In this document: piece by piece, positions 1 to 17,567 of the stretch | Position numbering within the stretch: position 1 is the stretch's first letter | Layout of the letters: each line of letters begins with the position of its first letter | DNA from: Tubiluchus corallicola | Lineage: Eukaryota > Animalia > Priapulida | Length of the DNA: 17,577 nucleotides | Direction: 5' to 3' | Assembly (NCBI GenBank): GCA_030141605.1 | Contig: JAQGDQ010002501.1 | Coordinates: forward strand, 1-17,577 | Made by a program: the position numbers and the translations under genes | The notes under the pieces: generated by a model | What the model was told of the DNA's origin: nothing | Database searches by the model: none | The model's input: only the letters and a program-made list of their open reading frames with translations

Positions 1-48
1 TTGCAAACGATTGAGCAAGTTTTACATTTGCCAGGTTATACATTTATC

Positions 49-81
49 AGCCGCCCTTAGATAGAGGGGCGGCTTTTTTTT
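49..81 (+). terminator. Rho-independent terminator of an upstream gene outside the window
   Basis: GC-rich stem AGCCGCCCT (49-57) / GGGGCGGCT (66-74, one G-U pair), followed by a run of 8 T (74-81). Confidence 0.85.
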
Positions 82-214
82 GAAAATTTATCTGAAGATC
101 TGTAATATCACTTTATATAGAGCTATATCTCCATTTTTTCTGTTTTTATCCCTTTTATTGTGGCTTTCTCGTCATATTTCTGTTAGCATCTGTAGGTTAA
201 AAAGCGTAAAATGT

Positions 215-426
215 GAGGTGCTGCACGCCCTTCCTCATGGGGTCTCTCAAGTGCACCTTAGGGGTTTGCTGTCGCACGCGAAGAGCGCCACACGGGAAGA
301 AGCGTAAACAAAAGACGCAAAGACTAAGGTACGCAAAGGTTACGGCACGTGATCTTATGGTCTCAAGTGCCCTTAGGGGTTTGCTGTCGCACGCGAAAGG
401 CGCCACACGGAAAGAGAAGTGCATAC
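215..426 (+). repeat. Two tandem imperfect copies (~215-309 and ~336-426) of a structured element in the glmU leader; candidate cis-regulatory RNA
   Basis: Core TCTCAAGTGC(A)CCTTAGGGGTTTGCTGTCGCACGCGAA(GA/AG)GCGCCACACGG occurs at 245-295 and 361-410. The flanks differ in sequence but keep pairing potential (TGCAC/GTGCA vs GGCAC/GTGCC). Confidence 0.85.
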
Positions 427-439
427 GAGAGGAATTTTA

Positions 440-1826
440 ATGGGAACACTCGGTCTAATACTTGCAGCCGGCAAGAGCAGCCGCATGAAGTCCGACAAAC
501 CAAAAGTTGTCATGGATCTTGCGGGGAAGCCCTTGATCAACTATGTCACAAAATCCCTTGATCAGTCGGGCATAAAAGAGATTGCGGTGGTTGCAAGTGA
601 CAACATGCCGGACATTCGCAATCACCTAGATGTTGAGGAGAATGCAGGAGTTAAGATCAGCTACTTCCGTCAAAAGGAGCAGCTCGGCACGGCTGATGCG
701 GTATTATCGGCGTCAGACATATTGCGTTCTCGCAACTCCCACGTTCTCATAGTGTGCGGTGATACGCCTCTTCTGGAACCATCCACAATATCCGACTTCA
801 TCTCTGTGTCTGCGGGCTCTGACGTATCTCTCATCTCCGCGGTCTCATCATCGCCCACGGGTTATGGCAGGATAGTCAGGGATAATGATGGCGGCTTTTT
901 ACGCATTGTGGAGGAGACGGACGCCTCAGATGAGGAGAAACTGATTACTGAGGTCAACACGGGCATATATTTTGTAAAATCTACCACCCTTCTGGAGCGT
1001 CTTTCAGATCTGAGCAACGACAATCTCCAGGGGGAATACTACCTCACGGATATACTTGAGCCCGGGGACAACATATACGTAGCCGGCAATGAAGAGGAAT
1101 TTTTGGGGATAAACGATCAGTATCAGATGTCGCAGATCCGCAAGATCATATGGAGAAGGCGGTGCGTCAAGCTGATGGGTCAAGGGGCTTGCATTCTCGA
1201 CATCGACACGACTTATATAGATGAAGAGGTGGTTGTTGAGGGTGATGCTGTAATACATCCCGGTGTCACTTTGTCCGGCAGTACGGTTGTGAAGCGTGGA
1301 GCCGTCATATACCCCGGGGTACGGATAGTTGATAGCGTAATAGGTGAGAATACTTCTGTATTGGATAATTCTCTCATTCTGAACAGTGAAGTGGGAGAAG
1401 GTTCCAAGATTGGCCCCATGGCACATTTACGCCCGGGTACGATCTTGCGAGGCAACAACTCTGTGGGCAACTTTGTCGAGATTAAGAAGAGCGATATAGG
1501 ATTAAACACCAAAGCGAGTCATCTTTCCTACTTAGGAGACAGCACGATAGGCGAGTTCTGCAACATAGGCTGCGGGACGATCACGTGCAATTATGACGGT
1601 ATAAACAAGCATGAGACGACGATTGGAGACAGGGTCTTTGTGGTAGCGGCGTAGAGCTTGTTGCCCTGTGGTGCTGGGTGATGATGCCGTAATTGGAGCA
1701 GGTTCCACCATTACAAAGGATGTTCCGCCGGAAGCCCTCGGGATTGAGAGGAGCAAGCAGATGGTCAGGGCGTCTTGGGCAAAGTCCAGGTTGCGCAAGC
1801 AGAGCGGCAAGAAGGAGAGAGGATAG
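440..1826 (+). CDS. glmU: Bifunctional UDP-N-acetylglucosamine pyrophosphorylase / glucosamine-1-phosphate N-acetyltransferase (two apparent 1-nt deletions near 1642 and 1665)
   Basis: Motifs [52 protein letters not shown] and hexapeptide repeats. RBS GAGAGGA precedes the ATG at 440. The ORF stops at 1654, but the expected tail ([29 protein letters not shown]...) continues in shifted frames to TAG 1824-1826. Confidence 0.95.
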
Positions 1827-1830
1827 ATTT

Positions 1831-3651
1831 ATGTGCGGTATTGTGGCGTTTGTGGGCGATTCTTCTGCAAAAGAGATCATTCTGGATGGTTTGAGGCATC
1901 TGGAATACAGGGGATACGATTCAGCAGGCATCGCTCTGCCGAACAATGGCGGGATAGATGTTGTGCGCAGCGTCGGCAAGTTGAAGGAGTTGTCAAAAAA
2001 GTTAAAGGACAAGGACTATGACGCCGCATTCGGCATAGGTCACACAAGATGGGCCACTCATGGTCGTCCATCTTATGAGAATGCTCATCCGCATACGTCG
2101 GAACATGTGGCGATTGTCCACAACGGCATCATAGAAAATTATCTACAGATAAGGGAAGAGTTGGAACAGAAGGGTTACAAATTCATCTCGGAGACCGATA
2201 CGGAGGCTGTTGCCCACCTGATCAGGGACAACTATACAGACTCTCTACAAGATGCGGTGGTTGCTGCAATCTCAAAGCTCCAGGGTGCTTATGCTCTTGC
2301 GGTAATATCGTCAAGGGAGCCGGGTAGGATTATCCTGACTAGGAAGGACAGTCCTCTTGTTTTGGGTGTTGGCGAGTCTTGCAATTATGCTGCAAGCGAT
2401 GTGCCAGCGATTCTGCAGCACACCAGATCTTTTATATTTCTAAAGGACGGCGACGTTGCGGTGATTACCAAGGAAGAATATACGATCCACGACAAGGATG
2501 GCAAACATGTGGAGCGGGATATAAATCTGGTCAGTTGGGATCCTGTCACGGCGGGCAAATCTGGCTACAAGCATTTTATGCAGAAGGAGATATATGAGCA
2601 ACCCAAGGCGATAGTGGACACCATCCAAGGTCGCTACAGTTTGGAAAAGGGTGAGATCTATCTCGACAACATTGAGAAGATCAGCACCAACCTGCACAAG
2701 GTCAAAAGGGTGCTCTTTTCTGCTTGCGGCACAAGTTTTCATGCAGCTCTTGTTGCAAAGCACTACTTGGAGAAGTATGCGCGGATTCATGTGGAGGTTG
2801 ACATAGCTTCAGAGCTCCGCTACAGGCACAGCATCATAGATGAAGAGACCTTATTCATGTGCATATCCCAATCAGGGGAGACGGCGGACACCCTCTCCTC
2901 CATGCGTATAGCAAGTGAACGGGGTGCATTGACTTTAGCGGTATGCAACGCACTAGGCTCAAGCATGTCAAGGGAAACGGACGGAGTCCTCTACACCCAC
3001 GCAGGACCGGAGATAGGGGTGGCATCCACAAAAGCTTTTACCACTCAGGTTGTGCTTCTCTATCTCTTCAGCCTCTACCTGGGGCTCCGCAGAAATATCA
3101 TAAGCAATGAAGAGGTCTCCCATAAGCTCCAGGAGCTCGTTGCCCTATCCGACAAGATTAAGAAGACGCTCAAGATGGATGATGAGATAAAATCCTTGGC
3201 AAAGGAGTTCAAGGATATGAAAAACTTTATGTACCTAGGGCGCGGTTTAAACTATCCTATAGCGTTGGAGGGTGCATTAAAGCTGAAGGAGCTCGCTTAC
3301 ATACACTCAGAAGGCTACCCTTGCGGGGAGATGAAGCACGGCCCCATAGCGCTCATTGACAAAAACATGCCGGTATTTTTCATAGCCACTGAGAGCTCTA
3401 TACTCAGCAAAGTTGTGTCGAACATGGAAGAGATCAAGGCAAGGGACGGCATAATAATAGCGTTATTGAACAAGGGGAGCGTCGCTGAAAAGCATTGTAT
3501 GCACAAGATATATGTCCCCAACGTATCTGAGGATCTGTCCGTACATCTGAACACGGTTGTAACCCAGCTTTTTGCGTATCACACGGCGAACTTACTCGGT
3601 CTTGACGTAGATCAGCCGAGAAATTTGGCAAAAAGCGTCACGGTAGAGTAA
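1831..3651 (+). CDS. glmS: Glutamine--fructose-6-phosphate aminotransferase (isomerizing)
   Basis: True start is MCGIV at 1831 (Ntn catalytic Cys), after RBS GAGAGGA. Motifs LEYRGYDSAG, GHTRWATHG, HNGIIEN, SQSGETADT, EGALKLKE and C-terminal PRNLAKSVTVE. Confidence 0.98.
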   Translation: MCGIVAFVGDSSAKEIILDGLRHLEYRGYDSAGIALPNNGGIDVVRSVGKLKELSKKLKDKDYDAAFGIGHTRWATHGRPSYENAHPHTSEHVAIVHNGIIENYLQIREELEQKGYKFISETDTEAVAHLIRDNYTDSLQDAVVAAISKLQGAYALAVISSREPGRIILTRKDSPLVLGVGESCNYAASDVPAILQHTRSFIFLKDGDVAVITKEEYTIHDKDGKHVERDINLVSWDPVTAGKSGYKHFMQKEIYEQPKAIVDTIQGRYSLEKGEIYLDNIEKISTNLHKVKRVLFSACGTSFHAALVAKHYLEKYARIHVEVDIASELRYRHSIIDEETLFMCISQSGETADTLSSMRIASERGALTLAVCNALGSSMSRETDGVLYTHAGPEIGVASTKAFTTQVVLLYLFSLYLGLRRNIISNEEVSHKLQELVALSDKIKKTLKMDDEIKSLAKEFKDMKNFMYLGRGLNYPIALEGALKLKELAYIHSEGYPCGEMKHGPIALIDKNMPVFFIATESSILSKVVSNMEEIKARDGIIIALLNKGSVAEKHCMHKIYVPNVSEDLSVHLNTVVTQLFAYHTANLLGLDVDQPRNLAKSVTVE

Positions 3652-9109: not shown

Positions 9110-9256
9110 ATGGAACCGAAACAGATATTTTATCTCATAGTAACGATCGTATTGGGCACTACTATGGTGGCCCTTGGACTATATTACTACTCCCCCAAGA
9201 GGAAGGACAAGATCGAGGAACCGAAGTACAAGATGCTCGAAGGGGACGATGACTAA
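9110..9256 (+). CDS. ccoQ: Small single-TM protein, cbb3-type cytochrome c oxidase CcoQ/FixQ-like (48 aa; not in the ORF track)
   Basis: My translation: MEPKQIFYLIVTIVLGTTMVALGLYYYSPKRKDKIEEPKYKMLEGDDD*. RBS GAGGA upstream; TM helix, basic patch and acidic tail as in FixQ; overlaps the ccoG start. Confidence 0.75.
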   Translation: MEPKQIFYLIVTIVLGTTMVALGLYYYSPKRKDKIEEPKYKMLEGDDD

Positions 9257-10427
9257 CGGAAAAATGCGCAACATCAGGAGAGCAGCAGAAATAGCCCAGG
9301 GCGTACTGTTCCTGACGTTGCCCTTTATCACGCTGAATGGCGCGAACGCTTTGCGGTTTGATGTCAAAGAGGTGAAGCTTTACGTCCTGGGATACATATT
9401 GTGGCCTGGGGATCTGTATATAGTGTCCGCTTTTGTCATATTCTGCATGTCCCTGTTTATATTTATCACGTTTGCATTCGGGCGCATCTGGTGCGGGTTT
9501 GTTTGTCCCATGGGTGTGCTCATAAGCTTCTTTGAGTACATTAGAGAAAGGACGGGGTCGATCTTTGCCCACATCATCTTTCTTCTGTTTTCATTCCTGG
9601 TCGCTGCAAACCTGATCTGGTATTTCGTGCCGGTCTACGACTTTATGTCTGGATTGAAGAATGGCGACCTTGCAAACGTCACGAGCTATATATGGATCGG
9701 TCTAGGACTGACAATATACTCGAGCGTAAGCCTGATCGGGAGAAGATTTTGCATCGATGTGTGCCCCTACTCAAAGCTACAGTATGCAATGATAGATGCC
9801 AAAACTCTGAACGTGTCCTACATAAAGCAACGGGATGATGATTGCATCAGGTGCGGAGAATGCGTGCGGGTTTGCCCTTTTGCTCTGGATTTAAGGGAGG
9901 TTGTCACCAGTATCGACTGCATATCCTGCGGCAGGTGTATCGATGCTTGTGCCTCTGAACTTGCTCTGCAAGATAAGGAAGCGCTGTTCGGTTATCTCTT
10001 CGGGCAAAGCAAGGGGATAAAAAATTTGAGCAGACCTTCCACCACAATTACACTATCTTTCACGGTGCTGTTTGCTCTGATATTTGCCTACTCTGTGAGA
10101 AGTTATGACGTCTACGATATCAGGATTGAGGCGGAAAGATATACAAAGAATAGAATGATCGATGGAGAATTCTACACAAAAAGGTTTAAAACAACCATCA
10201 CGAACAAGAGCCTGAAGGATGAAGAGGTCAGACTTGCGGTATCGTCAGAGGAGGCGCATCTGGAGCTCTACCCTGACCTGCTCACGTCAAGGGGGAACAG
10301 TACTGAAGTTTTCAACGTGGATGTTACAGTCAAGGACGATTCAAGTGCGGCAAGAGCATCTGCCGCGTTTATTTTCGAGATTGGGGATGAGACGTTTCGT
10401 GAAGTCAAAGTTTTGAGGAAAAGGTAA
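9249..10427 (+). CDS. ccoG: Cytochrome c oxidase accessory protein CcoG/FixG (membrane 4Fe-4S protein)
   Basis: FGRIWCGFVCP and FCIDVCPYSKLQ motifs, two ferredoxin-type Cys motifs (CIRCGECVRVCP, CISCGRCIDAC), TM helices and an Ig-like C-terminus. Start moved to ATG 9249 (or 9264), because 9174 lies inside the ccoQ-like ORF. Confidence 0.9.
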   Translation: MTNGKMRNIRRAAEIAQGVLFLTLPFITLNGANALRFDVKEVKLYVLGYILWPGDLYIVSAFVIFCMSLFIFITFAFGRIWCGFVCPMGVLISFFEYIRERTGSIFAHIIFLLFSFLVAANLIWYFVPVYDFMSGLKNGDLANVTSYIWIGLGLTIYSSVSLIGRRFCIDVCPYSKLQYAMIDAKTLNVSYIKQRDDDCIRCGECVRVCPFALDLREVVTSIDCISCGRCIDACASELALQDKEALFGYLFGQSKGIKNLSRPSTTITLSFTVLFALIFAYSVRSYDVYDIRIEAERYTKNRMIDGEFYTKRFKTTITNKSLKDEEVRLAVSSEEAHLELYPDLLTSRGNSTEVFNVDVTVKDDSSAARASAAFIFEIGDETFREVKVLRKR

Positions 10428-10876
10428 TGAAAAAATATTTTGTATTGATGGCACTAGTAATAGTTGCGGGTCTTGGCACCGTCTTTGCCGTAGTAATCTT
10501 AGGCAAAGCAAATCACGGGGATGTTATTGTGGAAAATCCCTACAAAACAGGGATGCAGTTTCATGAGGTAAGCGCTCTAAAAGAGAGATTGGGCATCGTA
10601 ATAGAGACTGAAAAGGATACGTACGATATCGGTCAAGAGATAACGTTTCTCGTATATCAGCACGATGAAGCGACCCTTCTCCCGATGGATATACGGATAA
10701 AGGCGGGCGCACTACACACAAAAACTTTTCAGACATCCACAGCGCACTACAACGAGGATAAAGGCGTATATCTATCAGGAATAACTCCATCCTCTACAGG
10801 CTGGTGGGACATATTATTTGTACTGGATATTGACCAGTACGCGGTGCAATATGAAGCTAAGGTGGAGGTAAGGTAA
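10427..10876 (+). CDS. ccoH: FixH/CcoH-like membrane-anchored accessory protein
   Basis: N-terminal TM helix followed by VIVENPYKTGMQF (FixH-like V..N.Y..G..(Y/F)); YtkA-like C-terminal strands (G.W.I); TAATG coupling to ccoG; canonical position between ccoG and ccoI. Confidence 0.7.
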   Translation: MKKYFVLMALVIVAGLGTVFAVVILGKANHGDVIVENPYKTGMQFHEVSALKERLGIVIETEKDTYDIGQEITFLVYQHDEATLLPMDIRIKAGALHTKTFQTSTAHYNEDKGVYLSGITPSSTGWWDILFVLDIDQYAVQYEAKVEVR

Positions 10877-10877
10877 T

Positions 10878-11618
10878 ATGCACGATGGAGGACATTCATT
10901 GATGATGATGGGGGGTAATAGTTCAATATTTATCTTCATGTTCCTCATGGGGTTGAGCGGAGGTTTTGGACATTGTATCACCATGTGCGGCCCTGTGGCT
11001 TGTGGGGTTGGCAGTCTTGCTCCTAGGGGGAGATATCTTGACGGTCTGCTGTTCAACACAGGAAGGGTATTGTCTTATGCGGGCGTGGGCGGCATTGCCG
11101 CATTGCTCGGGTATTCCATGAAAGAGGTGGCTTCTTTTGTCCATTTTCAAAAGGTGCTGCAGCTGTTCTTGGGAATGGTTATGATAGCGGCGGGCGTCAT
11201 GGTCGGCAACCTTTACAGCGGATCTGGCATCGGCAAATACACCGTGATGGTCTCTGAAGCTTGTAAGAAACTGACCAATTATTTTTCATCACACGGCAAC
11301 GGAGTTGCAATGTTTCCGTTTGGCATGCTTTTTGGCCTGATACCTTGCGGATTATCCTACGGCGCTTACGCCGTTGCGGCAGGCTACAGCAGCGGAAATA
11401 GCATCAGCGGAATCGAAGCCCTTGCAAATGGAAGCGTAATGTTATTTCTGTTTGGCTTAGGCACAGCCCCTACCCTGCTTATTATAAACTTTTTGTCAAA
11501 CAGAGGAGTATTCCACACAAAGAGATATTTTGAATTGCTTTCATCATTTCTGTTTATATTCTTGGGAGTGATCTATATATACAAGTCCGTTCTGAAGTCT
11601 CTCTTAGGTGCTTTTTGA
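10878..11618 (+). CDS. DsbD_2 / sulfite exporter TauE/SafE-family membrane protein of cbb3 maturation clusters
   Basis: GHCITMCGP, NTGRVLSY, GLIPCGLSY and FGLGTAP motifs; multiple TM helices. Confidence 0.88.
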   Translation: MHDGGHSLMMMGGNSSIFIFMFLMGLSGGFGHCITMCGPVACGVGSLAPRGRYLDGLLFNTGRVLSYAGVGGIAALLGYSMKEVASFVHFQKVLQLFLGMVMIAAGVMVGNLYSGSGIGKYTVMVSEACKKLTNYFSSHGNGVAMFPFGMLFGLIPCGLSYGAYAVAAGYSSGNSISGIEALANGSVMLFLFGLGTAPTLLIINFLSNRGVFHTKRYFELLSSFLFIFLGVIYIYKSVLKSLLGAF

Positions 11619-14035
11619 GTGAAAATGATTAGTTGTTCCCACTGCTTGAAGGTATTTCCGTCACAATCTGCCATATCTTGCGACATCGATGGGGTTGAAA
11701 AACATTTCTGCTGTCCCGGGTGTCTAGGGGTTTATGAGCTGATACACAACAGCGGCTTAAAGAGATTTTACGCCCAAAGGGACTGGAAGAGTGAAGGCAA
11801 GCCGATAGACGAGATGGTGCTTGGGGATCTCAACCCTTTTGAAAAAGAGATAATAACCGACAACGGGATCAACTCCATAGAGATAGTGATAGAGGGGATA
11901 AAATGCCCCTCCTGTATCTGGTTGATAGAGAAGTTTTTATCAAAAAACGACGCAATCAGTTATGTAAGGATAAATTACACGTCAAATAAAGCAAAAATCA
12001 GATGGGAGGGGGATGCCCTTAAGGATATACTGGGGATGATTTATCGCCTGGGCTACACTCCGAAGCTATACAAGACCAGCGAGATGCTGAAGACGAATGA
12101 AAAGGAGTTCATGGACAATGTACTCCGTTTTGGGACTGCGGTCTTCTTTTCCATGCAGGTGATGTTATATTCTGCGGCGCTGTATGCGGGATATTTCCAG
12201 GACATCGAGGACAGTTATCGGATATTTTTCCAGACTTTGGCGATGATTCTTGCTACACCTGTCCTATTTTATTCCGGCTATCCGTTCTTTCGGGGTGCTT
12301 TCAAGAGCTTTGCCAATCTATCCTTTAATATGGACACCCTCATTGCCATAGGCTCTTTCAGCGCTTATGTTTACAGCGTATATTCATTAATCTACGGTGG
12401 AGAGACATACTTTGACACCGCCGTCATGATAGTGACATTCATCCTGGGGGGCAGGCTTATAGAGACCAACATGAGAAAACGAGCCCTCTTTGCGGTGGAG
12501 AAGCTCGTGGATATTGTGCCCAATGAAGTCTCTATCGTGCGGGATGGTTTTCCTATGTCCGTGCAGCTGGAAGATATTGCGATAGGCGATATTGTGGATG
12601 TCAAACCCGGCTGTAGAATACCGGTGGACGGAACGGTTATCGAAGGTGATGGCGAGGTGGATGAATCGATGTTTACCGGGGAACCCATGCCTGTGTACAA
12701 AAAGATCGGCGAACAGGTCACAGGCGGCACAATAAATCTGCTCGGGCACCTTAGGATAAAAACCACAAAGACGAATAAAGAGTCCGCCCTGAACGCCATA
12801 ATACGATCATTGGAGGATATACTGGATCAGAAGACCGCCATACAGACCTTTGCAGATCGGGTGGTGAGCATCTTTGTCCCCACCATACTTATTTTGTCAT
12901 TCTTGACGGTATCTATGCATCTTCTGATATTGGACAGATCGTTTGCCCCCGCTTTGATGACCGGCATATCGGTGCTGCTCATCGCTTGCCCTTGTAGCCT
13001 TGGGATAGCTGTTCCCCTTGCGGTAACGACGGCTTCCGGCAAAGCCGCCCTTGGGGGGATATTTCTAAAATCCGGGAACGAATTTGAAAAGATGCACAAG
13101 GTAGGCACCATATTTTTTGACAAAACCGGCACCTTGACCGAGGGCAACCCAAAGCTCTATCACACGGAAGCCATCAAGGGTGATGTCGAGCATTTGCAGA
13201 GTGTCGCATCGACCCTTGAAGCAAAGTCAGAACATGTGATAGCAAAAGCCTTCCGATATATACCGAAAGATCCGAACATAAATATCGAGACCTTCACAGC
13301 AATTCCCGGCAGAGGAATAGCTGCAACCGACAGCAATCAGGTCTCATATCTGATAGGAAACAGCAGATTGATGACGGAGAACGGAATAGAGATAAGATCC
13401 GCAACAGTAGCCTCATCATATGAAGAGGATGGTTATACGGTGCTTTTCCTGGCAGAAGACAATGAATTAACGGCGATATTTGCCCTGGGCGACAGGCTCA
13501 AGGAGGAAGCAGCATATTGCATCGCTGAGCTAAAGAAGCAGAATATACGCACACATATAATAAGCGGAGATACGGAAATCCCCACAAAGAAGGTGGCAGA
13601 TGTCTGCAATACAGACTCCTATCATCACAGCTTGAGCCCGTCTGACAAGATGGAGATAATAAAAGGGTTTAAAAACTCCGAAAAAAAGAGGATAATGATG
13701 GCTGGCGACGGTATCAATGATATAACAGCCCTTGCCGAGAGCGACATGGGGCTTGCGGTATTTAACGGAATAGATACCACCCTCCAAGGGGCAAACGGCT
13801 ATCTGATCGGGGGGAACCTGATGTCGATTCCGTACATTTTGTCCTCTCTAGGAAGACATTTAGGGTTATAAAGCAGAATCTGTTCTGGGCGACCATATAC
13901 AACGCCGCAGCCGTACCATTTGCAGCGACTGGCATGCTGCATCCGATATTTTCGGTCATAGCTATGACGCTGAGTTCCCTCTTTGTTGCGGGGAATTCAC
14001 TGAGGATAAAGAGATGTTCTCTGTATACATATTAG
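11619..14035 (+). CDS. ccoI: Cu(I)-transporting P1B-type ATPase CcoI/FixI (apparent 1-nt deletion near 13843)
   Basis: N-terminal CSHC...FCCPGC, HMA CPSC, TGEP, CPC, DKTGTLT and GDGIND motifs. The ORF stops at 13871, but the last two TM helices (LSRKTFRVIKQNLFWATIYN...AMTLSSLFVAGNSLRI) continue in another frame to TAG 14033-14035. Confidence 0.92.
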
Positions 14036-14183: not shown

Positions 14184-14861
14184 CTACAGCACCATGATCA
14201 TCGTCGTGTCTCTGTTAGAGCCATTCGGAAGGAGTACCTTATCCGGAAAGCTTTTCTTGCACTCCCCAATACTTTGGGGTGCATTGGCAGCTCCAAAGCT
14301 CCGAATATAAAAATACCTTCCGCCCACAGAACCACCCACGCCGAAGCGCGCTTCACCGGAATTGCTCATCTCCTCGGCAGGCTCAGTATAACCATCAATA
14401 CCTATCTCCATGATGCAGGTAATCTGGTTGTAGGCAGTTTGTTTGCCTAAGGTCAAACAGGTGTAATCAGCATCAGTTTGATCCTCCTCTAAGGCGTTAT
14501 TGTTGTGAATGTAGCAACCGGTAAAGTACCACTCAAGCTTGTCACCACTAGTGTTTATGATAAAATCTTCCCGGTTGATCGACCCCTTGTCCGCAAGCTC
14601 TCTGATTGCGGCATCACTCTCAGACTTTTGAATAAAATTGATCCCCGCAGGCATACCGGGCAGTCTGTGGTATTTAATATAAAAGCTTCCAATAGCTTCC
14701 TGAATAGATCGTATATTTGAAATATCTTGCCTAGCCTTGGCAGAATGATAAAGCTCTATACCCTTCAAAGCTATGCCGATGAGCACGCCTACCACGGCCA
14801 AAACCACGGCAAGTTCTATAAATGTCCATCCTCGTTTACTTTTCATGCGTCTAACCCTCAT
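14184..14861 (-). CDS. Prepilin-type N-terminal cleavage/methylation protein (pilin/pseudopilin-like), copy 1, most divergent
   Basis: Basic leader, then G|WTFIELAVVLAVVGVLIG (E5 conserved, W at +1); LPG motif; four Cys; CIMEIGIDGY. The alternative start at 14846 has a better RBS (GAGGG). Confidence 0.85.
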   Translation of the reverse strand: MRVRRMKSKRGWTFIELAVVLAVVGVLIGIALKGIELYHSAKARQDISNIRSIQEAIGSFYIKYHRLPGMPAGINFIQKSESDAAIRELADKGSINREDFIINTSGDKLEWYFTGCYIHNNNALEEDQTDADYTCLTLGKQTAYNQITCIMEIGIDGYTEPAEEMSNSGEARFGVGGSVGGRYFYIRSFGAANAPQSIGECKKSFPDKVLLPNGSNRDTTMIMVL

Positions 14862-14962
14862 AAATCACAAAATAACAACAATAAATCCGTTCCAAGCACA
14901 GTCTAACCTTTTGAGAAGATTTTGCAACATACAAATATCCCCCAACCACACCCTAAAGGAGA

Positions 14963-15010
14963 AAGATAATAGCACTCCCCAAATTCGTCAACATGTAAAT
15001 ATTTCTTACA
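14963..15010 (-). promoter_or_regulatory. Putative sigma70 promoter plus upstream palindrome for pilin copy 1
   Basis: Minus strand TTGACG (14991-14986), 17-nt spacer, TATCTT (14968-14963); palindrome TGTAA-N7-TTACA at 14994-15010. Confidence 0.6.
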
Positions 15011-15017
15011 ATCCCAT

Positions 15018-15051
15018 AAAAAAAGCCGCCCCTAATTTAAGGAGCGACTTA
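15018..15051 (-). terminator. Rho-independent terminator after pilin copy 2
   Basis: + strand A7-GCCGCCCCT...AGGAGCGACTT. The C/A mismatches become G-U pairs on the - strand, and the A-run becomes the U-tract. Confidence 0.8.
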
Positions 15052-15062
15052 TCATTAATTCG

Positions 15063-15686
15063 TTACCACACATTAACAGCCATAAATCCGGAGCGGTTGC
15101 CATCGGCAAACTTGATGCAATCGCCAACGCTCGAGTGGAGATTAACATCATTGAACTGGTATGGCCCGCTAGCAGTGCGCACCTCACCGCTGTAGTCACC
15201 GTTATTCCCCTCTATATAGCCATCGACGCCGAGCTCCACTATGCAAGTATGCGCCTCGGCAGTGTGACCGCTGGTACCACTTCTTATATTTACCAAGCAG
15301 GTGTAGAGAAACTCCTCGCCTGCCACATTTTCCACCTTATAGCTACGATCATTATCATACTCGCAGCTTCGGAAATACCACTTCTCGCCAGGCGCTCCAA
15401 CCCTTATGAAAAAATCTTCAACATTCAACAGCCCCTCATCAATAAGAGCCTTCATGGCCAGATATTCCGTGTACCAGGTAATACTGTGCTTGCCTCTGGG
15501 CGTGCCAGGCAGAGCGTCATACTTGCTGTAATGCATAGCAATAGCCGAACTTATCTTATCGATATTTGCAAGATCGGTCTTGACCTTTGCAGTTGTGATG
15601 AGATCTCTAGCCTTGATTGCAAGACCGAGTATTAAACCGATTACGACCAGCACTATAGCCAGTTCTATCAACGTAAAACCCTTCAT
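15063..15686 (-). CDS. Prepilin-type protein, copy 2
   Basis: MKG|FTLIELAIVLVVIGLILGLAIK, LPG, four Cys, CIVELGVDGY, GDCIK. ATG 15686 has RBS GAGG. The 15788 start gives an acidic leader and is unlikely. A start at 15706 plus one missing G would give the leader MKRRMRVMKG. Confidence 0.88.
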   Translation of the reverse strand: MKGFTLIELAIVLVVIGLILGLAIKARDLITTAKVKTDLANIDKISSAIAMHYSKYDALPGTPRGKHSITWYTEYLAMKALIDEGLLNVEDFFIRVGAPGEKWYFRSCEYDNDRSYKVENVAGEEFLYTCLVNIRSGTSGHTAEAHTCIVELGVDGYIEGNNGDYSGEVRTASGPYQFNDVNLHSSVGDCIKFADGNRSGFMAVNVW

Positions 15687-15714
15687 AACCTCATCCTCCT
15701 CTTCATAAGCACCC

Positions 15715-15758
15715 CTTCTGACCTTCTTCTGACCTTCTTCTGACCTCCTTTGATCCTT
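15715..15758. repeat. 11-bp tandem repeat (CTTCTGACCTT), 3 copies plus a degenerate fourth, in the 5' leader of pilin copy 2
   Basis: CTTCTGACCTT CTTCTGACCTT CTTCTGACCTC CTTTGATCCTT, read directly. Confidence 0.85.
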
Positions 15759-15805
15759 GTCGATGCCCAAATAAATCTCTTTCGACAATCCACTTCTTAA
15801 CCGTA

Positions 15806-15852
15806 ACGATATGATTTCCTAAAAATTAGTCAATATGTAAATATTTTTTACA
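15806..15852 (-). promoter_or_regulatory. Putative sigma70 promoter plus upstream palindrome for pilin copy 2
   Basis: Minus strand TTGACT (15833-15828), 16-nt spacer, TATCGT (15811-15806); TGTAAATATTTTTTACA at 15836-15852. Confidence 0.6.
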
Positions 15853-15936
15853 GTAAGAAACAGAGGTCGCCCTTAAGGATATTCTCAAAACAGTATAACT
15901 CCATCAAAATCAGTCGATTGTACAAACAGAATCTGG

Positions 15937-15973
15937 AAAAAAAAAAGCCGCCCCCAATTTAAAGGAGCGGCTT
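15937..15973 (-). terminator. Rho-independent terminator after pilin copy 3
   Basis: + strand A10-GCCGCCCC...GGAGCGGCTT; forms a stem plus U-tract on the - strand. Confidence 0.82.
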
Positions 15974-16010
15974 ATATATGAAGCTCTTAACTATTTAATG
16001 ATGATATATC

Positions 16011-16601
16011 CTAACTCAGAGTATCGCCGTTAGTACTACTGATCTTCTTGAGGCAGCTGGTACTGGTGCTTTCGTATGTCGTACGAAGAATTGAAAGCAC
16101 TTAGCCGCTTGCATCGCCAGTAGTGCCGCTTGCTGTATCATAACCATCGATGCCGAGCTCCACTATACAAGCATGCTGCTCAGTAGAGTTTAGCTCGGCA
16201 CCTTCATGTACCAAGCAGGTGTAGTTCAGCGTCGTAGAATCTGAATCCAAGGTATAGTAGGAGTCAGTATCATACTCACAAGCCTCAAATGTCCAGTTGC
16301 CAGGATTTGCAAGCTCTATCTGAAAGTCCTTATCGTTCAACAGGCCCTCGCCAATAAGATCGCTTGTGGCATCAGCCGATTTGTTTGCCGGGATGCTGCT
16401 GTCACCCATTGAAACACCTGGCAAACCTTCAAACTTGCTGTAGTATGCAGCAACCGCTGAGCCTATCTTATCGATCTTTGCAAGATCACCCTTCAACTTT
16501 GCCGTTGTAATGAGATCCTTACCCCTGATCGCAAGACCGAGTATTAAACCGATTACAACCAACACTATAGCCAATTCTATTAACGTAAAGCCTTTCTTCA
16601 C
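16011..16601 (-). pseudogene. Prepilin-type protein, copy 3, interrupted by an in-frame TAA at 16103-16101
   Basis: KKG|FTLIELAIVLVVIGLILGLAIR, LPG and CIVELGIDGY. It reads SG*VL where paralogs have SGEVR/TGDVR/SGEAR. The same frame continues VLSILRTTYESTSTSCLKKISSTNGDTLS*, which contains the fourth conserved Cys. Confidence 0.7.
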
Positions 16602-16693
16602 TCTCTCATCTCTCTCACCTCTCTATATAAAATAAATACTTTACTCTTTTTAAGATTAACAAATAAAAATCAACATAATTCCCCTAAGCCGTA

Positions 16694-16738
16694 ATGATAT
16701 AGTTTTTAAAATTCGTCAATATGTAAATATTTTTTACA
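16694..16738 (-). promoter_or_regulatory. Putative promoter plus palindrome for pilin copy 3
   Basis: Minus strand TTGACG (16719-16714) and TATCAT (16699-16694), but only a 14-nt spacer that contains homopolymer runs; TGTAAATATTTTTTACA at 16722-16738. Confidence 0.5.
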
Positions 16739-16822
16739 ATAAAGCAAAAGCCGCCCTTAAGGATATTCTCAAAACAGTATAACTCTCTCAAAATCGGTCG
16801 ATTGTACAAACACAATCTGGAC

Positions 16823-16857
16823 AAAAAAAAGCCACCCCCAATTTAAAGGAGCGGCTT
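16823..16857 (-). terminator. Rho-independent terminator after pilin copy 4
   Basis: + strand A8-GCCACCCC...GGAGCGGCTT; the deviations are G-U compatible on the - strand. Confidence 0.8.
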
Positions 16858-16877
16858 ATCATTAATTATTTAATGCG

Positions 16878-17525
16878 TTACCATACCCTAATAGCCTGAC
16901 TATCATTCGACCGAGTTCTTGTTAAACCATACATCTTGATACAGTCCCCAGTGCTCGTAGGTGTACCTTCGTCAATGAAAGCGTATGGCAGACCAGTAGT
17001 GCGCACATCACCGGTGTATCCGCCAGTCTTCCCTTCTGTATAACCATCGAGGCCGATCTCCGTTATACAAGCATTCATCATAGAGGTGTGACCGTTAAGA
17101 TCAGAATGACCAGATTTATGCAGAATGCAGGTAAGATTATAGTCACTGCTACTATTATCTTCTGGCGCATAATAAACACCCCTACTGTTAGTTTGGTGCT
17201 TACAAGTAACAAAATACAATACCTCTTTAGGCAATCCAACCTGTGTGACAAAATTATCATCAGACAACAACCCCTCAGCATAAAGGGCATCTTTGGCCAC
17301 CGGATCATTCCACCCGGCAATACCTTTGTTAGGCCTAGCGCCCGGCAGGGTATCATACTTGCTGTAGTATATAGCAAGCGCTGAACCTATCTTATCGATA
17401 TTTGCAAGATCGGTCTTGATCTTTGCCGTCATGATCATATCCCTACCCTTGATCGCAAGACCGAGTATTAAACCGATTACAACCAGCACTATCGCCAACT
17501 CTATTAATGTAAAACCTTTCTTCAT
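16878..17525 (-). CDS. Prepilin-type protein, copy 4
   Basis: MKKG|FTLIELAIVLVVIGLILGLAIK, LPG, four Cys, CITEIGLDGY, GDCIK. ATG 17525 has RBS GAGGTG; alternative start is GTG 17534. Confidence 0.9.
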   Translation of the reverse strand: MKKGFTLIELAIVLVVIGLILGLAIKGRDMIMTAKIKTDLANIDKIGSALAIYYSKYDTLPGARPNKGIAGWNDPVAKDALYAEGLLSDDNFVTQVGLPKEVLYFVTCKHQTNSRGVYYAPEDNSSSDYNLTCILHKSGHSDLNGHTSMMNACITEIGLDGYTEGKTGGYTGDVRTTGLPYAFIDEGTPTSTGDCIKMYGLTRTRSNDSQAIRVW

Positions 17526-17534
17526 CTCTTTCAC

Positions 17535-17567
17535 CTCTCTAATCTCTCTAATCTCTCCAATCTCTTT
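17535..17567. repeat. Degenerate 9-bp tandem repeat (AATCTCTCT), ~3.5 copies, in the leader of pilin copy 4
   Basis: CTCTCT AATCTCTCT AATCTCTCC AATCTCTTT, read directly. Confidence 0.7.

What the first reader, a model, noticed from the sequence alone, without database searches (positions are those of the whole stretch)
215..433. Tandem structured element with compensatory changes in the glmU-glmS leader: candidate novel tandem riboswitch or cis-regulatory RNA
Seen: two copies about 116 nt apart share a ~50-nt nearly invariant core (245-295, 361-410), and the divergent parts preserve pairing. Stem TGCAC(222-226)/GTGCA(251-255) becomes GGCAC(344-348)/GTGCC(367-371), a T-A to G-C covariation. 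It is extended by GAGG/CCTT in copy 1 and by AAGG/(C)CTT in copy 2. The inner hairpin GCCCT..GGGGT is replaced by GATC..GGTC before a conserved TCAA bulge. A CGC-[GAAGA|GAAAG]-GCG hairpin varies only in its loop. GTTTGC can pair with GTAAAC (copy 1) or GCATAC (copy 2, one mismatch), and the latter abuts the RBS GAGAGGA (427-433). The element lies downstream of a terminator, so it is plausibly in the 5' UTR. Established: the known cis-acting RNA for this pathway is the glmS ribozyme, whose core is absent here; tandem aptamers occur in glycine and other riboswitches. Inference: it may control translation in response to an amino-sugar or UDP-GlcNAc-related signal, or to a protein. I do not recognise it as a known family. 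Two copies give only limited covariation evidence.
Basis: partly seen in the sequence, partly recalled or inferred. Interest (0 to 1): 0.8.

Follow-up and report, generated by a model that had tools for sequence, protein, structure and literature searches.

The report
Orphan tandem RNA module before glmU
A roughly 115-base unit is repeated head to tail just in front of the cell-wall sugar genes glmU-glmS of an unplaced Deferribacterales-like bacterium; it matches no Rfam family, likely folds into a small knotted RNA and possibly controls translation, but no relative was found, so it may be an ordinary tandem repeat.

Summary
The duplication is real: two units 115-116 nt apart whose 50-nt cores differ by one indel and two substitutions. 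The second unit ends at the glmU Shine-Dalgarno (SD). Contigs of one public run hold further unit and linker variants at this locus only, suggesting three or more copies or strain variation. There is no Rfam match (E<=10), and no homologue in 68 Deferribacterota genomes, 453 other genomes, or metagenome and viral pattern scans.

One variant breaks its showcase covarying pair. A fold both copies share is a hairpin whose 5-nt loop pairs with the core (H-type pseudoknot); it beat post hoc nulls (0/3000 shuffles; neutral-divergence p 0.0002-0.012; 0/392 paralogue control windows). Single helices, the SD-blocking stem and overall folding energy are not better than chance.

Best reading (0.36): a lineage-restricted, tandem, structured 5' leader that likely gates glmU translation. 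A neutral variable tandem repeat is nearly as likely (0.33). A new metabolite-sensing riboswitch class is not excluded (about 0.18) and is cheap to test.

The parts
49..80 (+). Intrinsic-terminator-like hairpin and T run, upstream boundary of the leader
   Evidence: 10-pair stem 49-74, then T run
80..108 (+). Sigma-70-like promoter candidate 1 (9 of 12); would start the RNA near 115
   Evidence: consensus match only (2 found, 0.9 expected in shuffles)
183..212 (+). Sigma-70-like promoter candidate 2 (9 of 12); would start the RNA near 219 and cut off most of the copy-1 P1 5' strand
   Evidence: consensus match only; start site inferred
214..309 (+). Repeat unit 1 (first copy of the module)
215..233 (+). 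Copy 1 hairpin P1 (215-221 with 227-233, 6 pairs, -5.3 kcal/mol) closing the 5-nt loop 222-226
   Evidence: alone not better than shuffles (27%)
251..255 (+).
245..295 (+). Copy 1 conserved core, including the CGC/GCG hairpin 277-287 and the P3 5' strand 264-269 (pairs with 304-309)
   Evidence: P3 alone not significant (18%)
315..346 (+). Linker with two 16-nt sub-repeats (75% alike); a linker variant 32 nt longer exists in run X1
   Evidence: D4
336..426 (+). Repeat unit 2 (last copy, abutting the SD)
336..356 (+). Copy 2 hairpin P1 (336-343 with 349-356, 8 pairs) closing loop 344-348, which is complementary to 367-371
   Evidence: probability 0.61-0.63 in the whole leader; 1.8% of shuffles
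361..430 (+). Predicted alternative stem, 361-374 with 417-430, that would cover the 5' half of the SD; excludes the pseudoknot
   Evidence: -10.3 kcal/mol versus -2.8 in copy 1; its SD-covering helix has probability 0-0.06 when longer RNA is folded; 16% of shuffles as stable
427..433 (+). Shine-Dalgarno-like sequence of glmU
   Evidence: 6 nt before the ATG at 440
440..1826 (+). glmU; two 1-nt deletions near 1641 and 1663 in the window shift the frame and are absent from the X1 contig
   Evidence: (TIGR01173 above cut-off)
1831..3651 (+). glmS, directly behind glmU; pcrA-like helicase and gatCAB-like genes follow on the same strand
   Evidence: glmS above cut-off; the helicase is below the PcrA cut-off; gatC/gatA named from recall of the sequences, gatB likewise

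Best explanation
The repeat lies head to tail directly before the glmU ribosome-binding site and is likely a folded RNA module in the 5' leader of the glmU-glmS transcript that would act as a translational switch for glmU. Each unit is predicted to begin with a 6-8 pair hairpin whose 5-nt loop pairs with a strand 18-24 nt further on (an H-type pseudoknot or loop-loop contact), followed by a loose stem-loop domain. In the last unit, the strand that closes the knot could instead pair with the region in front of and into the SD. A ligand or protein that stabilises the knot would therefore free the SD and turn translation on, and extra upstream units would sharpen or tune the response. Shown: the repeat, its position, the complementarities and the unit variants in run X1. 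Inferred: transcription, fold, switching, direction and ligand. The most natural ligand candidates from gene context alone are pathway substrates (GlcN-1-P/GlcN-6-P, UTP, acetyl-CoA, glutamine); none is tested.
For: Position: between a terminator with promoter-like sites and the SD, with unit 2 ending at 426. No leader ORF spans the element. The 5' 21 nt of the units are only 9 of 21 identical, yet both form a hairpin closing the same 5-nt loop, fully complementary to the downstream strand. It shows 2 double changes in the gapped alignment and 5 in the ungapped one; 0 of 3000 column shuffles reached this in either alignment. Simulated neutral divergence from either copy kept both helices in 0.015-1.2% of 20,000 trials per setting. 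A single-sequence descriptor hits 3 of about 35,000 positions in the window, two of them these copies. Among paralogous pilin-cassette control windows, 0 of 392 reached the same level (554 made; 162 outside 50-85% identity dropped). The two helices of the knot compete at 0.6 and 0.35 when ViennaRNA, which cannot form both, folds the leader. The SD-blocking duplex is -10.3 kcal/mol in the last copy and -2.8 in copy 1. By eye, the 2-nt insertion variant in X1 would extend P3 to 9 pairs with the linker and 8 of 9 with the last-copy strand. Homologous aptamers in tandem before one expression platform are an established architecture (PMC9481103, passages).
Against: No homologue was found. Of 30 related glmU loci examined, none carries it, and most have little or no leader. 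All nulls were designed after seeing the fold, and 5 of 392 control windows reach a looser criterion. Single helices are weak: copy-1 P1 27%, SD-blocking stem 16%, P3 18% and 40% of shuffles as stable. The units fold no better than shuffles (z +0.7 each; cores z +2.1 and +1.4), and the minus strand of copy 1 folds better (z -2.3). The SD-covering helix has probability 0-0.06 in longer folds. The two-row pair count has no power (118 of 500 shuffles as high). An X1 variant breaks the fifth knot pair. Promoter candidate 2 would truncate P1 of copy 1.
Confidence: 0.36

Rival explanations
1. It is a neutral variable-number tandem repeat. A stretch of leader was duplicated by slippage or unequal crossing-over. 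The middle of the array is homogenised while the outer flanks drift, which gives an invariant core without any selection on RNA structure.
For: Run X1 holds two linker variants and three entry variants between one unique entry and one unique exit; the linker itself expands by 16-nt sub-repeats. Identity is highest in the middle (38/40) and falls at both outer ends (9/21 and 8/15). No homologue was found, and folding energies are unremarkable. The same window has other tandem duplications with conserved non-coding DNA (pilin cassettes).
Against: The diverged 5' flanks keep a hairpin plus loop pairing far more often than neutral simulation or paralogue controls do. The array ends exactly at the SD.
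Confidence: 0.33
2. It is a structured but non-switching RNA: a leader that stabilises or paces the mRNA, a processing or protein-docking site, or an array of small RNAs cut from the leader (comparable in layout to repeated pseudoknot RNAs, recalled).
For: The structural signal is stronger than the signal for an SD switch. Every unit carries the full module, whereas only the last can reach the SD.
Against: No toxin or RNA-binding gene follows; the downstream gene is glmU. No terminator-like site was found between the array and glmU.
Confidence: 0.17
3. It is a remnant of a mobile or repeated element that landed upstream of glmU in this lineage.
For: It was not found before glmU in 30 related loci and is lineage-restricted.
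Against: There are no terminal inverted repeats in 1-700, no other copy in the window, no loose ends in X1 contigs over 200-460, and no real match in plasmid or phage records. The whole genome is not held.
Confidence: 0.08
4. It is a new self-cleaving or cofactor-dependent ribozyme that destabilises the glmU-glmS mRNA, working like the glmS ribozyme with an unrelated fold.
For: Gene context: the glmS ribozyme controls this pathway by self-cleavage (PMC10087520, passages). A pseudoknot is predicted, and the phylum genomes searched lack the known ribozyme (0 of 68).
Against: No Rfam ribozyme model matches at E<=10, and nothing in the sequence points to a cleavage site.
Confidence: 0.06

Closest known systems
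Tandem-aptamer riboswitches with one expression platform (glycine, NAD+-I, guanidine-II; glutamine-I doublets and triplets are listed as tandem whole switches; PMC9481103, passages)
   Same: Two or more highly similar modules sit side by side upstream of one gene, with the last next to the SD.
   Different: There is no sequence or structure match to any of these Rfam models. No conserved distribution was found, no ligand is known, and unit sequence and probably number vary within one run.
glmS ribozyme (Rfam RF00234)
   Same: It lies in the leader of an operon containing glmS.
   Different: There is no match in the window, and the family was found in 0 of 68 phylum genomes while the control rang in 2 of 14. 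Here the element precedes glmU and is tandem.
Small H-type pseudoknot riboswitches (preQ1-I, SAM-II, fluoride, guanidine-III; topology recalled)
   Same: A hairpin loop is predicted to pair with a downstream strand, near an SD.
   Different: There is no Rfam match. The knot is at the 5' end of a longer unit and does not itself pair with the SD.
Bacterial VNTR / minisatellite in a promoter-leader region (general knowledge)
   Same: Head-to-tail units, internal sub-repeats, variants within one sample, and no conservation in relatives.
   Different: The unit is long, and divergence in its 5' flank appears to keep base pairing.

Membership tests
Any Rfam 15 family | Match to the family covariance model | tested here: not met
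   No match over 190-460 at E<=10; none overlapping 215-433 in 1-1500
glmS ribozyme (RF00234) | Conserved catalytic core recognised by RF00234 | tested here: not met
   family in 0 of 68 phylum genomes
glmS ribozyme (RF00234) | GlcN-6-P-dependent self-cleavage | not testable with these tools
   needs an in vitro assay
Riboswitch (kind) | Located in the transcribed 5' leader of the regulated gene | tested here: inconclusive
   Position fits; no RNA holder was listed; start site unknown
Riboswitch (kind) | Conserved sequence and covarying structure across species with consistent gene association | tested here: inconclusive
   No homologue found, but the nearest genomes are distant (GlmU 52%, GatB 64%) and the models rest on two rows. 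Covariation is seen between copies only.
Riboswitch (kind) | Expression platform with a mutually exclusive alternative fold | tested here: inconclusive
   An SD-blocking stem exists only in the last copy but is not beyond chance (16%)
Riboswitch (kind) | Selective ligand binding that changes expression | not testable with these tools
   needs in-line probing and reporters
REP/MITE-type dispersed repeat | Many dispersed copies, with palindromic or terminal inverted repeats | tested here: not met
   None in the window; no loose ends in X1; whole genome not held
VNTR | Head-to-tail units that vary in number or sequence between strains or molecules | tested here: inconclusive
   Variants are shown; contigs cannot separate copy number from strain mixture, and the tool warns that depth is no copy number
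CRISPR array | Identical repeats separated by unrelated spacers | tested here: not met
   The two linker variants in X1 are homologous to each other; no Rfam CRISPR repeat match

The most novel reading that the evidence does not exclude
A new riboswitch class: tandem pseudoknotted aptamers that sense an amino-sugar pathway metabolite (GlcN-1-P, GlcN-6-P, UDP-GlcNAc) or another GlmU/GlmS substrate and gate glmU-glmS translation. The number of aptamers would vary within a population as a tunable array. It would be a third, unrelated RNA route to controlling this pathway beside the glmS ribozyme and GlmY/GlmZ.
Probability: 0.18. Interest if true: 0.85.

Novelty: new member of a known kind. Interest (0 to 1): 0.45.

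Why it matters
The review passages I read name two RNA controls for UDP-GlcNAc precursor synthesis: the glmS ribozyme and GlmY/GlmZ (PMC10087520). My paper searches listed no RNA motif upstream of glmU and no orphan riboswitch tied to UDP-GlcNAc; supplements were not searched. Many rare riboswitch classes are predicted and are hard to find by comparative genomics (PMC5473149, passages). A tandem array supplies its own small covariation set, and the 220-nt RNA can be tested directly in vitro. If it is neutral, it is an ordinary repeat.

Tried and rejected
Rfam, twice, with no match on the element. No own genome is held. GlmU locus scan of genome contigs: 80 loci, best 50% identity; BLAST and nhmmer found nothing, and model R2 gave best E 3.5. 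Exact look-up of three window proteins: 0 of 3 in the collection.

BLAST of the element: 3 of 5 genomes at E<=1 and 8 of 68 at E<=0.5. I inspected three of these hits; they are short and do not extend. Model R1: 0 of 68 and 0 of 5 genomes. Model R2: 0 of 151 in each of three other phyla, and best E 4 on 24 of the 30 related glmU loci. These are samples, with no positive control genome.

Patterns: viral contigs gave 0, 1, 0 and 43 matches, none continuing into the core. Metagenome contigs gave 11 matches, none continuing. The phylum gave 2 matches against 4 for the reversed control, and the one inspected lies in an open frame. GlmU N-terminus in viral contigs: none. Plasmids: none; phages: one 26-nt match at E 0.7.

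Sequencing runs: no RNA holder listed; X2 and X3 laid nothing. TRF did not report the array. One search used a structure string that I misregistered by one column; one search is the correct one and has no power with two rows.

Resemblances recalled from memory to ykkC-type, THF, glycine, TPP, cobalamin, NAD+ and T-box RNAs, and to HDV-like, twister and pistol ribozymes, were considered by eye and dropped: topology or conserved blocks did not fit and Rfam gave no hit. A leader peptide was rejected because no open frame with a start spans the element. The X1 variants were not folded by computer; their pairing was judged by eye.

Full report
Observation. Every coordinate in the finding is right. 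The cores 245-295 and 361-410 differ by a 1-nt indel and two loop substitutions, and the ungapped repeat is 45 nt at 93% with spacing 115. Upstream lie a terminator-like hairpin (49-74) and two weak sigma-70-like sites (80-108, 183-212; 2 found against 0.9 in shuffles). Downstream, the SD-like 427-433 follows unit 2 directly, then glmU and glmS, a PcrA-like helicase and gatCAB-like genes.

Organism. No own genome is held. The best GlmU match in the collection scan is a Deferribacterales genome at 50% identity. Among 68 genomes of that phylum, GlmU reaches 52% and full-length GatB 64%, so this is a distant lineage with no close relative on hand. glmU lies directly before glmS in 28 of 30 loci examined. 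None of 30 glmU loci examined (of 66 matches) shows the element, and most have a short gap or none.

Is it an artefact? One run (X1, possibly the source sample) holds the DNA. Its contigs give one unique entry, one unique exit into glmU and no loose ends over 200-460. Between them are two linker variants (one 32 nt longer) and three variants of the unit's first half; the last unit differs from the window at 408 and 411. The duplication is therefore real, and the copies seen in that run are confined to this locus. The variants suggest three or more copies or a strain mixture; contigs cannot tell which, and the tool warns that depth is no copy number. The same contigs lack the two 1-nt deletions that shift the glmU frame near 1641 and 1663. 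The missing GlmU-like C-terminus reads on in another frame to a stop at 1824-1826, so these are likely assembly errors.

Known families. Rfam gives nothing on the element at E<=10. The glmS ribozyme was found in 0 of 68 phylum genomes, with the control ringing in 2 of 14.

It is the minimum-energy fold of the isolated 5' domains, and its inner hairpins beat 95% and 97% of shuffles. In whole units it lies about 10 kcal/mol above the minimum, and most of its helices have probability below 0.08. Its showcase covarying pair sits on an indel and is broken in one X1 variant. The units fold no better than shuffles (z +0.7; cores +2.1 and +1.4), and the minus strand of copy 1 gives z -2.3 while that of copy 2 gives +0.15.

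A second fold. The strand after the 5-nt segment 222-226/344-348 can also pair upstream: 336-343 with 349-356 (8 pairs) and 215-221 with 227-233 (6 pairs). That leaves the segment as a loop that pairs with 251-255/367-371, which is an H-type pseudoknot. G220-C228 becomes A342-U350 and U222-A255 becomes G344-C371 in either alignment; the ungapped alignment adds three more double changes but is less parsimonious. No column shuffle of 3000 matched this in either alignment. Neutral divergence kept both helices in 0.015-1.2% of trials. A descriptor hit 3 of about 35,000 positions, two being the copies. Of 392 paralogue control windows (554 made, 162 dropped on identity), 0 reached the level, though 5 reached a looser one. 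These tests are post hoc. Copy-1 P1 alone is not significant (27%), and the two-row pair count has no power. Both folds share the central helix and differ in the partner of the middle strand; the data do not decide between them, and the two could be states of one switch.

Expression platform. For 333-445 the minimum-energy fold pairs 361-374 with 417-430 and covers the 5' half of the SD (-10.3 kcal/mol, against -2.8 for the matching stretches of copy 1). This excludes the knot. However, 16% of shuffles do as well, and the SD-covering helix has probability 0-0.06 when longer RNA is folded, although the SD stays mostly paired there in other ways. The switch is therefore inferred, not shown.

Homologues. 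None was found: BLAST in 5 and 68 genomes; covariance models in 68 + 5 + 3 x 151 genomes and in 80 and 24 loci; exact patterns in metagenome and viral contigs and in the phylum; plasmids and phages. The models rest on two near-identical rows and the patterns fix 16-20 letters, so diverged relatives could be missed.

Literature. Tandem homologous aptamers before one expression platform are established (PMC9481103, passages). The glmS ribozyme and GlmY/GlmZ are the RNA controls named for this pathway (PMC10087520, passages). Many rare riboswitch classes are predicted (PMC5473149, passages). Searches for glmU with riboswitch/motif, Deferribacter with riboswitch, orphan riboswitch with UDP-GlcNAc, and glmS ribozyme distribution (listings only) showed no such element. 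Supplements of motif surveys and subscription papers were not searched. Earlier scan notes had no look-alike sequence; one search listed analogous cases in other genomes, which I did not test and which came after my pseudoknot reading.

Verdict. It is a real, uncatalogued, orphan tandem module with moderate internal evidence of selection on RNA pairing. My odds are: translational cis-regulator of glmU 0.36 (a metabolite riboswitch about 0.18 of the total), neutral variable repeat 0.33, structured non-switching RNA 0.17, mobile remnant 0.08, new ribozyme 0.06. It would work like a tandem riboswitch but is a member of no known family. Interest 0.45.

Noticed in passing
window 1641 and 1663: Two 1-nt deletions truncate the glmU frame in the window; the X1 contig has the extra letters, so they are likely assembly errors in a low-coverage stretch.
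   Followed up: yes
window 14184-17534, minus strand: Four tandem type IV pilin-like genes at about 900-nt spacing, with repeated non-coding DNA and terminator-like hairpins. The third (16101-16601) is shorter than its neighbours and may be frameshifted. Used only as a control.
   Followed up: partly
window 46-80 and 15018-15052: The terminator upstream of the element is 74% alike to the terminators of the pilin cassettes on the other strand (I1).
   Followed up: no
window 9174-13871: CcoG-like ferredoxin membrane protein (TIGR02745, below cut-off) followed by two membrane proteins and what looks like a heavy-metal P-type ATPase (recalled, not tested).
   Followed up: no
window 251-256: Copy 1 carries a 6-nt palindrome after two unpaired A residues; copy 2 does not. 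The flanks 245-248/261-264 could close a second hairpin, making the contact loop-loop rather than H-type.
   Followed up: no
L135, L136, L137, L139, last 60 nt before glmS: Four related genomes carry an inverted repeat just before the glmS start, not seen in the other 26 loci printed.
   Followed up: no
L093-L096, about 90 nt before glmU: The same four genomes share a well-conserved short non-coding stretch before glmU, unrelated to the element.
   Followed up: no
window 17524-17565, 16595-16625, 15715-15758: Short 9- and 11-nt tandem repeats at the starts of the pilin-like genes, overlapping their ribosome-binding regions.
   Followed up: no
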